Source: Felis catus
Taxonomy: Eukaryota
Assembly: GCF_018350175.1 (NCBI RefSeq)
Contig: NC_058368.1
Coordinates: 41,666,001-41,730,000 of the forward strand
Length of the DNA: 64,000 nucleotides
Direction: 5' to 3'
Part shown: in pieces, positions 4,562 to 46,739 of the stretch
Layout of the letters: the number at the start of each line of letters is the position of its first letter
Position numbering within the stretch: the stretch's first letter is position 1
The notes under the pieces: model-generated
The model's database searches: none
Told to the model about the DNA's origin: nothing
The model's input: only the letters and a program-made list of their open reading frames with translations
Program-made: the position numbers and the translations under genes

Positions 4562-4663
4562 ACAACCTTTGTCCTTCTGAATGACTTCTCAATCTCTAAA
4601 TTAATTGTCAGTACAACCTTTGTCCTTCTGAGTGACTTCTCAATCTCTAAATTAATTGTCAGC
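4562..4663. repeat. Tandem duplication, 51 bp x 2
   Basis: acaacctttgtccttctga(a/g)tgacttctcaatctctaaattaattgtcag starts at 4562 and again at 4613. Confidence 0.95.
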
Positions 4664-4849: not shown

Positions 4850-5265
4850 GAAAAGTTCTTTGACATTGGATGTCCTAGATATGGCACCAAAACAGAGGTG
4901 AAAAAGCAAAGATAGACAAGTGGGACTACATTAAACTAAAAAGTTTCTGCACAGCAAAAGAAACAATCACCAAAATGAAAAAGGCAACATATGCAATGGG
5001 AGAAAATATTTGCAAACTATATATCTAGTGAAAGGTTAATACCCAAAATCTGTAAATAACTCATATGACTCAATAGCAAAAATAAGTCTGATTTTAAAAT
5101 GGGCAAAAGATCTCAGTAGACGCTTTTCCAAAGAAGATGTACATATGACCAACAGGTATATATGAAAAGGCGCTCAAAATCAATAACATCAAGAAAAGGC
5201 AAATCAAAACCACAGTGAGATATCACCTCACACCTGTTAGAATGGTGATGATTTCAAAAACTCAA
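4850..5265 (+). mobile_element. Old L1 (L1MA-like), late ORF2 segment; left part of a split element
   Basis: gacaagtgggactacattaaactaaaaagtttctgcacagcaaaagaaacaatc...gatatcacctcacacctgttagaatgg. Confidence 0.9.
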
Positions 5266-5711
5266 TATACTTCCCTGGTGACTGTATGCAGGTACATGCA
5301 CAAAATCTGGCATCTCTTTAGGGACCTGTTTTGTAAGACTTCCAACCCCCCGCACCCATCCTTTTCTTTCTTGCTTTCTTGCTTTCTCTTTTCTTTCTTT
5401 CTTTCTTTTTTCTTTGAATGTACTTTTTTTTTTGAAACTAAGGTTGTAGAATTATGAAATTCCTTCAACCTTGGAACCTTAAATAGAATGCTCTCAAATG
5501 GACCGATTTTAATCCTTAGGTAGCAAATGCTGTTGCTGCTCATTTAATACAATTCAGTTGAAGCCTCAAGAGTCCAAGAGTACCAAAGTACTCCCTATGC
5601 TTCCCAGATGCCTCTTTCCTGAGCCACCAGTAGGTGGGGGTGGGTGGGGGTGGGGGTGGGGGAAGCAGGGTACACCTGAGCAGGGAACCTCAGGTGACTT
5701 AATATAGTTTG

Positions 5712-5864
5712 CCAGTGCTTACTCTATTGAAGACCTGGTTTTCATTTTTGAAGACACTCATGGAAGGGTATGTTTCTAATAGATTCACCAGTGCCTACTC
5801 TATTGAAGACCTGGGTTTTCATTCTTGGAGAAACTCATGGAAGGGTATGTTTCTAATAGATTCA
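5712..5864. repeat. Tandem duplication, 76/77 bp x 2
   Basis: ccagtgc(t/c)tactctattgaagacctgg...ggaagggtatgtttctaatagattca at 5712-5787 and 5788-5864. Confidence 0.95.
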
Positions 5865-6462
5865 CATATTAATATGTTCGAAAATGTCCTTGGTGCAGCT
5901 TATGCCACGTAATTATGAAGATTGTTCTTGAGTATTGCACAAAGGCTACGATGTTGGAACGGATAAGTCATGGGTGTGAAAGCTTTAATTTACCTACCTA
6001 TTTTTTTTTTTATTTTTGTAGCCATAGTCTCTATTTTCCTAATTTATGATCTCTGAAGTCTTCTGACACCATCTTAAACCTGAGTTGACCTATGCTGGGA
6101 GCAGCTGGATGTTCAAGGTATTTTTGTGATTCTTTTTTTTTTTTCTTATCACCCTCCTTTTTGTATATACAATATGAAGCAAATAAAGAACATTGCTTCG
6201 ATGATTTAACAAGGAGAAAGAAAGACCTTAATTTCTGAGTGGAGGAGTCTCCTTCTATATGGAAAAGTTGATCAAAACTGCTATCAAAATTTGTGTTATT
6301 GCACCTGATTTTACCATCCAAAGAATTTTTGGCCAAGTTGTGCCTTTCCTCCTGGAATTGTAAGTTGAACACAATACTGGTACCTGTTTACATTGTGAAG
6401 TGGGTATTGTTACAGAGAACACACCGGAGTCTTTCTCATTGTTAAGAAAATAATGCCTTATG

Positions 6463-8383
6463 CCCAGTAAACTCCACCAGAAGTCTGCTAGAACTGATAA
6501 ATGAATTCAGTGAAGTCGCAGGATACAAAATTAATGTACAGAAATCAGTTGCATTCTTATACACTAATAATGAAGCAACAGAAAGACAAATAAAGAAACT
6601 GATCCCATTCACAATTGCACCAAGAAGCATAAAATACCTAGGAATAAATCTAACCAAAGATGTACAAGATCTGTATGCTGAAAACTATAGAAAGCTTATG
6701 AAGGAAATTGAAGAAGATACAAAGAAATGGAAAAACATTCCGTGCTTATGGATTGGAAGAATGAATATTGTTAAAATGTCAATACTACTCAAAGCAATCT
6801 ACACATTCAATGCAATCCCAATCAAAATTGCACCAGCATTCTTCTCAAAGCTAGAACAAGCAATCCCAAAATTTGTATGGAACCACAAAAGACCCTGAAT
6901 AGCCAAAGCAATATTGAAGAAGAAGACCAAAGGTGGGAGGCATCACAATCCCAGATTTAACCTCTCCTACAAAGCTTTAATCATCAAGACAGCATGGTAT
7001 TGGCACAAAAACAGACACATAGACCAATGGAATAGAATGGAGACTCCAGAATTGGACCCACAAAAGTATGGCCAACTAGCCTTTAACAAAGCAGGAAAGA
7101 ACATCCAATGGAAAAAAGACAGTCTCTTTAACAAATGGTGCTGGGAGAACTGGACAGCAACATGCAGAAGGATGAAACTAGACCACTTTCTTACACCATT
7201 CACAAAAATAAACTCAAAATGGATAAAGGACCTGAATGTGAGACAGGAAACCATCAAAACCCTAAAGGAGAAAACAGGAAAAAACCTCTCTGACCTCAGC
7301 CACAGCAATTTCTTACTTGACACATCTCCAAAGGCAAGAGAACTAAAAGCAAAAATGAACTATTGGGACCTCATGAAGATAAAAAGCTTCTGCACAGCAA
7401 AGGAAACAATCAACAAGACTAAAAGGCAACCGACAGAATGGGAAAAGATATTTGCAAATGACATATGAGACAAAGGGCTAGTATGCAAAATCTATAAAGA
7501 ACTCACCAAACTCCACACCTGAGAAACAAATAATCCAGTGAAGAAATGGGCAGAAAACATGAATAGACACTTCTCTAAAGAAAACATTCAGATGGACAAC
7601 AGGAACATGAAAAGATGCTCAATGTCACTCCTCACCAGGGAAATACAAATCAAAACCACACTGAGATATGACCTCATGCCGGCTAAAATGAGAAAATCAG
7701 GAGACTATAGATGCTGGAGAGAATGTGGAGAAACAGGAACCCTCTTGCATTGTTGGTGGGAATGCAAACTGGTGCAGCCACTCTGGAAAACAGTGTGGAG
7801 GTTCCTCAAAAAATTAAAAATAGATCTACCCTATGACCCAGCAATAGCACTGTTACGAATTTACCCAAGGGATACAGGAGTGCTGATGCATAGGAGCACT
7901 TGTACCCCAATGTTTATAGCAGCACTTTCAACAGTAGCCAAATTATGGAAAGAACCTAAATGTCCATCAACTGATCAATGGGTAAAGAAATTGTGGTTTA
8001 TACACACAATGGAATAGTACTTGGCAATGAGAAAGAATGAAATATGGCCTTTTGTAGCAACATGGATAGAACTGGAGACTGTTATGCTAAATGAAATAAG
8101 TCATACAGAGAAAGACAGATACCATATGTTTTCACTCTTACATGGATCCTGAGAAACTTAACAGAAGACCATGGAGGAGGGGAAGGGGAAAAAAAAGCTA
8201 GAGAGGGAGGGAGGCAAACCATAAGAGACTTAAAATCTGAGAATAAACTGAAGATTGATGGGGGGTGGGAGGGAGGGGAAAGTGGGTGATGGGCATTGAG
8301 GAGGGCACCTGTGGGGATGAGCACTGGGTGTTGTATGGAAACAAATTTCACAATAAATTTCATATTAAAAATAAATTAAAAAA
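6463..8383 (+). mobile_element. 5'-truncated carnivore/felid L1 (disrupted ORF2 3' part, 3' UTR, A-rich tail)
   Basis: ORF-track fragments 6698-6898, 6914-7468 and 7538-8017 are L1 ORF2p sequence ([35 protein letters not shown]). Perfect 19-bp TSD aagaaaataatgccttatg at 6444-6462 and 8384-8402. Confidence 0.97.
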
Positions 8384-8503
8384 AAGAAAATAATGCCTTA
8401 TGAATGTATGATATATGGAGAAACCCCAATAGTTTTACCTGCTGATATTATATCTCTTGTTGGAGAATAAATTTTGGATGTTTTTTTTCTCTCTCCGTCC
8501 CCC

Positions 8504-8818
8504 AAAATCTCAAAAGGTAGCAACTGTTGATCAGGCTGTGGAGAAAAAAGAACCCTTATACATTGCTATTGGGGATGTAGATTGATGCAGCCACTACGGA
8601 AAAGAATATGGATAGTTCTCAAAATATTAAAAATGGAAGTAGCACATGATCCAGTAATCCCACTTCTGGGTATATATCCAAAGGAAATAAAATCACTATC
8701 TTTAAGAGATATCTACACTTCCATGTGTATTGTAGCATTACTCACAATAGTCTACATAGAAAAACAACGGTGTCCATCAACAGATAAATGGATAAAAAAT
8801 GTGATATAGACCCCCCCC

Positions 8819-8850
<32 letters not shown>

Positions 8851-9095
8851 TTATTCAGCCTTAATAAAGAAGGAAATCCTGCCATTTGTGACAACATGGA
8901 TAAATCTGGAGGACATTATGTTGAGCAAAGTAAACCAGACAGAGAATGACAACTACTGTAGGATCTCCTTATAAGGGGAATCTTTAAAAAAAGTTAAATT
9001 CATAGAAACAGAGTAGAATGGTGGTTACCAGCGATTAGGGGTGGGCAAAATGGAGGAGATGTTGGTCTAAGGGTACAAACTAAGTTAAAAATGAA
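8504..9095 (+). mobile_element. Old L1 (L1MA9-like) ORF2 end and 3' UTR; continuation of 4850-5265
   Basis: tgtggagaaaaaagaaccc...gatccagtaatcccacttctggg...gagtagaatggtggttacc...gatgttggtctaagggtacaaac. Contains a (CA)n tract at 8819-8850. Confidence 0.9.
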
Positions 9096-9164
9096 ATTCC
9101 CTGTGCTCATAATCTGAATAGTATTAGAGCAAAGGCAACATTATAATTCTTTTATTTCCCTCAT

Positions 9165-9637
9165 TGTATTAAGTTTCTATAGGTCTATAAAAATTACATA
9201 AATTTAATGGCTTAAAACAACATAGATTTTTTTACTTTACCGTTCTGTGGAAGTCTAACATGGGTATCTGGGCTAAAATCCCAGTGTTGGCAGGGCTACG
9301 TTCCTTTTTGGAGCCTCTAGGGAGAATCTGTTTCCTTGCTATTCCAGTTTCTAGAGGACATGCATACTTCTTGGCTTGTGGCTTCCTTCCTGCTTCTTCA
9401 AAGCCAACGATGTTGCTTCTTTCTGATCATTCCTCCCTAGTCGCATCTCCCCTGACTACAGATGGGAAATTTTCTCCACTTTTAAAGGGCTCTTGTGATT
9501 AGATTGGGCCCACATGGAACATTTAGGCTAATCTCCCCTTCTCAAGGTCCTTAGCTTAATCACATCTGCAAAGTAGTCACAGGTTCCAGGGATTAGGACG
9601 TGGCCATCTTTGTGGGGCCATTACTCTGCCTATTACG
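9165..9637 (-). mobile_element. MLT1C/D-like MaLR solo LTR
   Basis: tgtattaagtttct...ggcttaaaacaaca...ttaatcacatctgcaaag...gggattaggacgtgg. Confidence 0.8.
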
Positions 9638-45672: not shown

Positions 45673-46046
45673 TTAGAGTTGGTGCTCCTTCGGACTCTCA
45701 ATAGTACCTCCTGCTTGCTTATAAGACTTCAGATTTGCCAGAGGAATGTCTGTCATGTGGCTGCCATTGTTGAAATGGCCTTCATTGGAGCCATACTGCT
45801 TACGGTCATTGAACTGGTTCCTGTTGCTATCTTCTTTCCAGGCTCTGGTAAGGGTGTGCCCATTCACAAGCTTGTCCTTCTTGACCCATTCTTTCTGGGG
45901 TGCAAAGGTTGAGAGAGGAGATTTAGGGTGTTGATATGGGCCCAAGCCAGGAGGCATCCAGCAATTATCAGAGTGACCCAAAACCAAGCACTCTTGAGTG
46001 CACATCTCTGTGGCTTCAGCTAATCCTCGGGGACCCAAAGGCCCAT
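45673..46046 (-). CDS. PCDH9: Coding part of the terminal exon of protocadherin-9 (C-terminal cytoplasmic tail with delta-protocadherin CM2 motif)
   Basis: The translation (D)[33 protein letters not shown]...SPKEHQL* matches the PCDH9 C-terminus as I recall it, including CM2 (CTxECxxxGHSDxCW). The minus strand reads polypyrimidine tract ...ctctgtag|AT GGG CCT, giving a phase-1 acceptor with exon start at 46046. TAA stop at 45675-45673. Confidence 0.96.
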
Positions 46047-46094
46047 CTACAGAGGGCAAGAGACAGAGAAAATAAGAAAAGAAAGTGGTTAGAA
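46047..46094 (-). promoter_or_regulatory. PCDH9: 3' splice acceptor of the last PCDH9 intron (AG, polypyrimidine tract, candidate branch point)
   Basis: Acceptor AG at 46048-46047. Pyrimidine tract at 46049-46085 on the minus strand. TTCTAAC branch-point-like motif at 46094-46088. Confidence 0.85.
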
Positions 46095-46739
46095 CTGTAA
46101 TTTAAAATTGTCACCTTTGAGAAGAAGTGCATTGGTGATTTCATTTTCTTATGAAAGTATAAGTTACGCAATTCAAAGAATTCAGTCTTTTAAGAGGAAC
46201 AGAAAGAATCGAATTCCTTGTTGTGGAAGTAAGAATCATCTCTTTCCTTCAGCCTTCATTTATATCGAGAAACAGACATGAGTAAACAGATATACCCACA
46301 AGACACCATTTCTGATCAACTGTTTCTGTGGAGTATGTATTGTTACTGATTTACCATCTAATTCTCAACAAAAAGCCCTTATTCATGAAAAATTATGAAG
46401 AGTCGAAAATTTTTATGTGTGATGTTGAAAAATATGTAAATATGTAAATGTACAACTCCATAAAAACATAAAATACTTGAAATATAATATTAAAAAATAA
46501 ATACTCTAAATGATTATATAAAATATCAGTTTTCCATAAAAACATGTTATTTTATACAAAACCACACAAAAGTAATTGTGCAACATTTTTAAATTAAAAA
46601 AAATTAAAGCATATTTTAACTGTGTGTATTACTAAAGGAACACCTGGTCTGCTGCAAGCATTCTGAAATCCAAGTAAATAAAGAAGTCATTTGCATTCAA
46701 AGACAGCATTTGGTTGTTTCCAAACCTAACCTATTTTCT

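What the first reader, a model, noticed from the sequence alone, without database searches (positions are those of the whole stretch)
5255..8513. Hidden retroposed 3'-UTR-like cassette in a three-layer nest (old L1 > unique insert > young L1)
Seen: an old L1 stops at ...agaatggtgatgatttcaaaaactcaa (5265) and resumes in register at caaaatctcaaaaggtagcaactgttg (8503), so 11 bp are duplicated with one mismatch. Removing the young L1 and one copy of its 19-bp TSD leaves about 1297 bp that I cannot match to any repeat. This insert reads like an mRNA 3' UTR: U-rich runs, TGTATATA at 6162-6169 just before AATAAA at 6182-6187, and a second AATAAA at 8466-8471 about 30 nt from the right junction. Inference: an L1-mobilised, 5'-truncated processed pseudogene made only of 3' UTR, or an orphan 3' transduction, from an unidentified gene. 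It has no ORF, so gene annotation would miss it. Weakness: there is no clear poly(A) tail.
Basis: partly seen in the sequence, partly recalled or inferred. Interest (0 to 1): 0.72.

Follow-up and report, generated by a model that had tools for sequence, protein, structure and literature searches.

The report
Dead SALL4 3′-UTR retrocopy in L1
This is an ordinary processed pseudogene: the tail end of the messenger RNA of the stem-cell gene SALL4 was copied into an old L1 element in a cat-family genome tens of millions of years ago, was later split by a younger L1, and appears to be decaying without function.

Summary
All coordinates check out. The 1297-nt insert is the last ~70% of the SALL4 3′ UTR. 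Its parent is an intron-bearing gene on contig C10 whose last exon is 100% identical to felid SALL4. The copy starts 504 nt after the stop codon. It ends about 31 nt after the parent's only AATAAA, where eight other copies in this genome also end. The copies form a star around the parent, so they are independent retropositions; one of them is an intronless SALL4B cDNA. The host L1 halves are in register (21 of 28 peer loci). The copy has changed about 0.11–0.12 per site against 0.04–0.06 for the parent, evenly along its length. That fits neutral decay over roughly 45–70 My. There is no poly(A) tail beyond the TSD. Expression and the outgroup empty site remain untested. The scan's notes hold no SALL4 finding. 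Verdict: first reading right, parent now named; a new member of a well-known kind.

The parts
4869..5265 (+). Host (old) L1, 5′ half: 5′-truncated 3′ end of ORF2
   Evidence: Best other genomic copies 75-80% identical; matches start at about 4869-4902
5255..5265 (+). Left target-site duplication of the retrocopy (11 bp)
   Evidence: chance control 0 of 3000
5266..6462 (+). SALL4 3′-UTR retrocopy, 5′ part; starts at parent L021:4191, 504 nt after the stop codon
5363..5415 (+). TTTC microsatellite expanded in this copy from a pyrimidine run of the parent
5633..5662 (+). GGTGGG repeat within a 35-nt stretch absent from the parent and from copy C17a
5712..5865 (+). 77-bp tandem duplication private to this copy (93% match between units); single in the parent and in C17a
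6162..6187 (+). TGTATATA and first AATAAA: mutations private to this copy, not inherited signals
   Evidence: Alignment
6444..6462 (+). Left TSD of the young L1 (19 bp, at a TT/AAGAAAA site); both TSD copies share changes not found in the parent
6463..8383 (+). Young 5′-truncated L1 (1921 bp): ORF2 3′ part broken into three frames, 3′ UTR and A-rich tail
   Evidence: frames 6446-6898, 6899-7468, 7523-8017; 91-93% identity to the 39 best other copies among 40 candidates scored
8384..8402 (+). Right TSD of the young L1 (19 of 19 identical)
8403..8502 (+). SALL4 3′-UTR retrocopy, 3′ part, ending in the C-run at the inferred SALL4 poly(A) site
8466..8471 (+). Inherited SALL4 polyadenylation hexamer AATAAA (parent L021:5344)
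8503..8513 (+). Right TSD of the retrocopy (10 of 11 identical); no separate poly(A) tail before it
8503..9081 (+). Host (old) L1, 3′ half, in register with the 5′ half

Best explanation
Three successive L1-driven insertions, now inert. (1) An L1 3′ fragment inserted about 37 kb beyond the PCDH9 stop codon. (2) Roughly 45-70 My ago, in a germline or early-embryo cell, L1 ORF2p took a polyadenylated SALL4 mRNA, nicked a TC/AAAAA-type site inside that L1 and reverse-transcribed from the poly(A) end. It stopped after about 1.19 kb, before reaching the coding sequence, and left an 11-bp TSD. (3) After the copy had begun to decay, a younger L1 (about 20-25 My at most) inserted 119 nt from its 3′ end, with a 19-bp TSD. 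The copy has no ORF and no inherited promoter, and most likely does nothing. SHOWN: source gene, extent, shared 3′ end, both TSDs, order of events, independent origin, faster and even substitution. INFERRED: TPRT by L1, germline or embryo origin (any inherited insertion requires it), absolute dates, absence of function.
For: Full-length match of both halves to one locus, C10:10354190-10355365. That locus is the last exon of a four-exon gene matching SALL4 (tblastn; GT/AG ends of the last intron). Its last-exon peptide is 100% identical to Prionailurus SALL4, and its best single-stretch PDB matches are SALL4 zinc fingers. All 9 copies found end in the same C-run 30-45 nt after the PAS position; 5 of 9 have A-rich tails of 9-60 nt and 5 of 9 have a TSD found by script. 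Copy C17a is intronless and aligns across the SALL4B splice junctions. Among the 7 copies with more than 200 aligned columns, each is closer to the parent than to any other copy; the ML tree of those 7 plus the parent has no supported inner branch. The window branch is 0.09-0.12 against 0.04-0.06 for the parent. The relative-rate test is significant with 5 of 6 outgroup copies (these tests are not independent). Private changes are spread evenly over 9 bins (p=0.42). The felid neutral rate of 1.8e-9 and mammal average of 2.2e-9 per year come from PMC4643047 (passages).
Against: No poly(A) tail lies between the C-run and the TSD. Intron loss cannot be shown for this copy, because it lies within the last exon. 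The poly(A) site is inferred from the shared end of the retrocopies, not from RNA reads, and it lies 34 nt after the hexamer in the parent, slightly far for a typical site. The relative-rate test was not significant with copy C17b (p=0.21). A rate 2.5 times that of a constrained UTR shows relaxed constraint, but I had no orthologous flanks to calibrate the local neutral rate. The nick site is a variant of TT/AAAA. No outgroup empty site was seen.
Confidence: 0.95

Rival explanations
1. Same origin, but the copy is transcribed and acts in RNA form, as a microRNA decoy for SALL4 or as a 3′ end for a local non-coding transcript. Regulatory activity has been reported for human SALL4P5 and suggested for SALL4P7.
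For: The inherited AATAAA is intact here, whereas it is mutated in 4 of the 8 other copies. PMC10938534 (passages) reports regulatory activity of human SALL4 pseudogenes.
Against: There is no inherited promoter. A 1.9-kb L1 with its own A-rich 3′ end separates the PAS from the rest of the copy. Changes are fast and even. The copy differs from the parent at 17% of aligned columns. Keeping one hexamer by chance at 0.115 changes per site has a probability of about one half. SALL4P5 acts on the 5′ CpG island, which this copy lacks.
Confidence: 0.04
2. An orphan 3′ transduction, or a secondary copy made from another SALL4 retrocopy or from an L1 read-through transcript.
For: The copy has no CDS and no poly(A) tail, and the BLAST piece shared with copy C1b reached 91% over 137 nt.
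Against: Over the full alignment the window copy is closer to the parent (K2P 0.199) than to any of the other six long copies; C1b is about equal at 0.195 over only 253 columns, and C1b is itself much closer to the parent (0.115). The tree is a star. The sequence upstream of the truncation point in the source is SALL4 UTR and CDS, with no L1 match. No flank is shared with another copy beyond generic L1 similarity.
Confidence: 0.02
3. A DNA-level duplication or repair patch copied from the SALL4 locus, with the 11-bp repeat arising from microhomology.
For: No tail and no splice junction in this copy.
Against: The 3′ end coincides with the end of eight other copies, five of which have A-rich tails. 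No genomic sequence beyond that point is copied. The duplication is of host-L1 sequence at an A-rich, endonuclease-like site.
Confidence: 0.02

Closest known systems
5′-truncated L1-mediated mRNA retrocopies (processed pseudogenes), as described in PMC5470649 and PMC2912911 (passages)
   Same: Complete 3′ end at the parent's poly(A) region, 5′ truncation, flanking TSD, A-rich target site, no function apparent.
   Different: Truncated so far that no coding sequence is left. No poly(A) remnant apart from the A-run of the TSD. Nested between two L1s.
Human SALL4 pseudogenes: eight, 500-6000 nt, none on the SALL4 chromosome (PMC10938534; main-text passages and supplement passages)
   Same: Same parent gene and a similar number of dispersed copies (9 found here, a lower bound).
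   Different: Felid genome; 8 of 9 copies are 3′-UTR only. Orthology to any human copy was not tested; the dating suggests an insertion after the human-carnivore split. No evidence of activity.
Retropseudogene-rich pluripotency genes: NANOG has ten processed pseudogenes (PMC10110494, passage; Pain et al. 2005 seen only as a title in its reference list)
   Same: A gene of pluripotent cells with many retrocopies.
   Different: Here nearly all copies lack CDS, so a CDS-based screen would find one of nine.
Tailless retropseudogenes (PMC5322556, passages)
   Same: No oligo(A) tail, TSD present, possible target-RNA complementarity at the 3′ junction.
   Different: Those are truncated at internal positions of the RNA; this copy reaches the shared 3′ end and is truncated at the 5′ side.

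Membership tests
L1-mediated processed pseudogene | Derives from the exonic sequence of a parent gene elsewhere in the genome | tested here: met
   SALL4 last exon on C10
L1-mediated processed pseudogene | 3′ end at the parent's polyadenylation site | tested here: met
   Ends about 31 nt after the inherited AATAAA, at the point where 9 of 9 copies end. The site is inferred from the copies, not from RNA reads.
L1-mediated processed pseudogene | Flanking target-site duplication | tested here: met
   11 bp with 1 mismatch; host L1 in register
L1-mediated processed pseudogene | Target resembling TT/AAAA | tested here: met
   Left junction reads TT/CAAAAA or TC/AAAAA, a one-base variant (sequence; consensus from PMC5322556 and PMC2912911 passages)
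L1-mediated processed pseudogene | Poly(A) remnant (a labile hallmark according to PMC5470649) | tested here: inconclusive
   Four A follow the C-run but belong to the TSD; no separate tail. 4 of 9 copies have at most 4 nt, 5 of 9 have 9-60 nt.
L1-mediated processed pseudogene | Loss of introns | not testable with these tools
   This copy lies wholly within the last exon. Sister copy C17a is intronless across the SALL4B junctions.
L1-mediated processed pseudogene | Release from constraint | tested here: met
   Branch 0.09-0.12 against 0.04-0.06 for the parent; even spread. No orthologous flank for calibration.
Tailless retropseudogene (Schmitz/Noll) | No oligo(A) tail, TSD present | tested here: met
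Tailless retropseudogene (Schmitz/Noll) | 3′-truncated (10 nt or more) at an internal position of the source RNA | tested here: not met
   Ends at the same point as the tailed sister copies; not filed here
Orphan L1 3′ transduction | Source lies directly downstream of an L1 (or of a donor copy) | tested here: not met
   Upstream of the truncation point lie SALL4 UTR and CDS, with no L1 match; star tree
Catalogued interspersed repeat (Dfam) | Match to a repeat consensus | not testable with these tools
   No Dfam here. Only 10 non-microsatellite loci were found, one of them a gene exon; counts are lower bounds.

The most novel reading that the evidence does not exclude
The missing tail is original, not eroded. 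The nicked target strand ends in five T and a G, which pairs only at the C|AAAAA boundary between mRNA body and tail, so reverse transcription began at the first A's. Together with three other SALL4 copies that have at most 4 nt of tail, while five keep 9-60 nt, this would record L1 copying of short-tailed, stored maternal SALL4 mRNA in oocytes or zygotes. UTR-only retrocopies would then be a fossil record of poly(A)-site choice and tail state in the ancestral carnivore germline.
Probability: 0.08. Interest if true: 0.45.

Novelty: new member of a known kind. Interest (0 to 1): 0.15.

Why it matters
Little as a single locus. It is a clean, datable nested insertion that could serve as a presence/absence marker in carnivore phylogeny. 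Two side points have modest value. First, 8 of the 9 SALL4 copies found carry no coding sequence, so CDS-based pseudogene surveys undercount retrocopies of genes with long 3′ UTRs. Second, all 9 end at one distal site 1.7 kb after the stop codon, and none was found ending near the internal A-rich stretch about 190 nt after the stop. So the long 3′ UTR was already used in the ancestral germline or embryo. The copies can also cause mis-mapping in felid SALL4 RNA-seq and could help reconstruct the history of the UTR.

Tried and rejected
Motif reading: the PUF-like TGTATATA and the first AATAAA are rejected as signals, being private mutations. The PUF label is recalled, not from a call.

Closer kinship to copy C1b: suggested by a 91% BLAST piece, rejected on the full alignment and tree.

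C22 as the parent: a 34-nt hit at 97%, rejected; it is a 70-nt retrocopy with a tail and TSD.

Different subfamilies for the host halves: not supported. Loci found with either half match the other at about 73% against 78%, as expected from selection bias. No subfamily names could be assigned.

Expression: one search listed 24 runs. Five RNA-labelled runs from two gut or feline metatranscriptome studies hold 0.17-0.63 of the sampled words, as contigs. Six runs of unknown kind hold 0.93-0.96, under two organism labels. No read lay was obtained, so expression and the state without the young L1 are open.

Pfam gave nothing useful for the SALL4 C-terminus, the PCDH9 exon or the L1 frames.

Rows dropped: C22 was left out of the tree and rate tests (too short). 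C21 was not in the alignment. SINE and L1 insertions were cut from four paralogs before aligning. Columns near gaps and homopolymers were masked. TSD search found nothing convincing for C17a, C42a, C42b and C21.

Literature: no paper on carnivore SALL4 retrocopies appeared in the listings (10 of 10; 3 of 4; 12 of 18) or 58 (10 of 152); listings only. The positions of the human SALL4 pseudogenes are in a supplementary figure that is not held as text, so orthology to them was not checked.

Full report
Observation. The young L1 is flanked by an exact 19-bp repeat at 6444 and 8384. The whole insert is flanked by an 11-bp repeat with one mismatch at 5255 and 8503. Removing the young L1 and one TSD copy leaves 1297 nt. 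In 0 of 3000 random window pairs from the host L1 halves did such an 11-mer match occur. To test register I took the 14 best other loci for each host half. In 21 of these 28 both halves lie side by side, with a projected overlap of median 13 nt, and the junction alignment places the overlap at about 11-12 nt. Four loci matched one half only and three had larger gaps. The host is one interrupted L1.

Source. The window lies at G000:C1:41666001-41730000 in a 2.4-Gb genome. The left insert part matches C10:10354190-10355279 over its whole length, and the right part continues at the next base, 10355280. That locus is the last exon of a four-exon gene (tblastn) with GT/AG ends on its last intron. 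The last-exon peptide is 100% identical to a Prionailurus SALL4 and 99% to lion SALL4. The zinc-finger exon's best single-stretch PDB matches are SALL4 (125.9 bits, against 93.5 for SALL3). The genome is therefore felid and the parent is SALL4. Its 3′ UTR runs from L021:3688 to about 5383 (1.7 kb) and holds one canonical hexamer, AATAAA at 5344, which is window 8466. The copy begins 504 nt after the stop codon and covers the last 70% of the UTR. The nearest gene seen in the window is the PCDH9 last exon on the minus strand at 45676-46101, about 37 kb away.

The family. Searches with the insert and with the parent UTR found eight more copies (lower bounds): C17a, C42a, C16, C1b, C17b, C42b, C22 and C21. 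All nine end in the same C-run after the PAS position. Five have A-rich tails of 9-60 nt and four, including the window copy, have at most 4 nt. A TSD was found for five. Only C17a reaches the CDS. It is intronless and aligns across the SALL4B junction HKC|RSS and the exon 3-4 junction, so the family comes from spliced mRNA. Among the seven copies with more than 200 aligned columns, each is closer to the parent than to another copy, apart from a near tie for the window copy (0.199 to the parent, 0.195 to C1b over 253 columns). The ML tree has five inner branches and none is supported. The copies are independent retropositions, which rules against a transduction or a copy of a copy.

Motifs. 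At 6182 the parent and four sister copies have AATGAG, and at 6162 the parent and three copies have (T)GTATATG. The 77-bp tandem duplication (93% match) and the TTTC expansion are also private.

Age and constraint. With gaps and homopolymers masked, the window branch is 0.090-0.123 and the parent branch 0.038-0.057 across six outgroup copies. The relative-rate test is significant in five of six (not independent tests), and not with C17b. Private changes are even across nine bins (p=0.42). With 1.8-2.2e-9 per site per year (PMC4643047, passages) the insertion dates to roughly 45-70 My. That is near or before the cat-dog split, whose date of about 50-55 My I recall rather than take from a call. 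The host L1 differs from its nearest peers by K2P 0.19-0.22 at least, with medians 0.24 and 0.30, so it is as old as the copy or older. The young L1 is 91-93% identical to its best peers, about 20-25 My at most. Its two TSD copies share changes absent from the parent, so the retrocopy had begun to decay before it arrived. The three ages agree with the nesting order.

Mechanism. Shown: source, extent, shared 3′ end, TSDs, order, independence, relaxed constraint. Inferred from established L1 biology (PMC5470649 and PMC2912911, passages): ORF2p nicked an A-rich site in the host L1, primed on the SALL4 poly(A) tail and stopped early. The missing tail has two possible causes. One is erosion after insertion; PMC5470649 calls tails and TSDs labile. 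The other is priming at the tail boundary: the TSD begins with C followed by five A, which matches the mRNA's C|poly(A) junction, so the target end could pair there and leave no tail. The data here do not decide between them. The copy is not a tailless retropseudogene in the sense of PMC5322556 (passages), because it is not 3′-truncated.

Against and open. Intron loss cannot be shown for this copy. The poly(A) site rests on the copies, not on reads. No outgroup genome was available for the empty site or for a local neutral rate. The locations of the human SALL4 pseudogenes are in a supplementary figure that I could not see.

What is known. Human SALL4 has eight pseudogenes, and SALL4P5 is reported to demethylate the SALL4 5′ CpG island through DNMT1 (PMC10938534, main-text and supplement passages; PMC10452131, passages). 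NANOG has ten processed pseudogenes (PMC10110494, passage). No paper on carnivore SALL4 retrocopies appeared in the listings. The scan's own notes hold no SALL4 finding and nothing near this place.

Verdict. This is a new member of a well-known kind and most likely inert. Interest 0.15. The boldest reading not excluded is that the tail-free copies record priming on short-tailed maternal SALL4 mRNA (probability 0.08, interest 0.45).

Noticed in passing
L022:6465-3781 (- strand; G000:C17:192.247-192.250 Mb): A SALL4 retrocopy made from the short SALL4B splice form: the 616-aa isoform aligns across the HKC|RSS junction and the exon 3-4 junction. It is frameshifted and interrupted by a SINE. It suggests that SALL4B with the long 3′ UTR was made in the ancestral germline or embryo.
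   Followed up: partly
L022, L023, L026, L027 and the window copy: Five of the nine SALL4 copies were later interrupted by younger SINE or L1 insertions; L026 holds two SINEs and an L1 3′ fragment (element types recognised from memory and from their mutual similarity). Nesting is common for this A/T-rich UTR; enrichment was not tested.
   Followed up: partly
L025:4700-5600 (G000:C1:200.40 Mb): Copy C1b (about 250 nt) has the shortest branch (0.03-0.08) and may be the youngest. Its flanks look like an old L1 (recalled, not tested).
   Followed up: partly
window 45676-46101 (-): PCDH9 last coding exon (Atlas score 0.97). The finding lies about 37 kb beyond its stop codon.
   Followed up: partly
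window 4562-4662: A 51-bp tandem duplication, 98% match, in the flank just upstream of the host L1.
   Followed up: no
L021:3878-4020: A long A-rich then T-rich stretch about 190 nt after the SALL4 stop codon, without a canonical hexamer before it. It is a likely oligo-dT internal-priming site that could give a falsely short annotated 3′ UTR. No retrocopy was found ending there.
   Followed up: partly
L021:4730-4745 and 5230-5245: The parent has lost a 7-nt stretch that the window copy and C17a both keep, and 2 nt kept by all five copies with sequence there. These are parent-lineage deletions younger than those insertions.
   Followed up: no
window 9130-9630: Sequence resembling an old MaLR-type solo LTR directly after the host L1 (recalled, not tested).
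   Followed up: no
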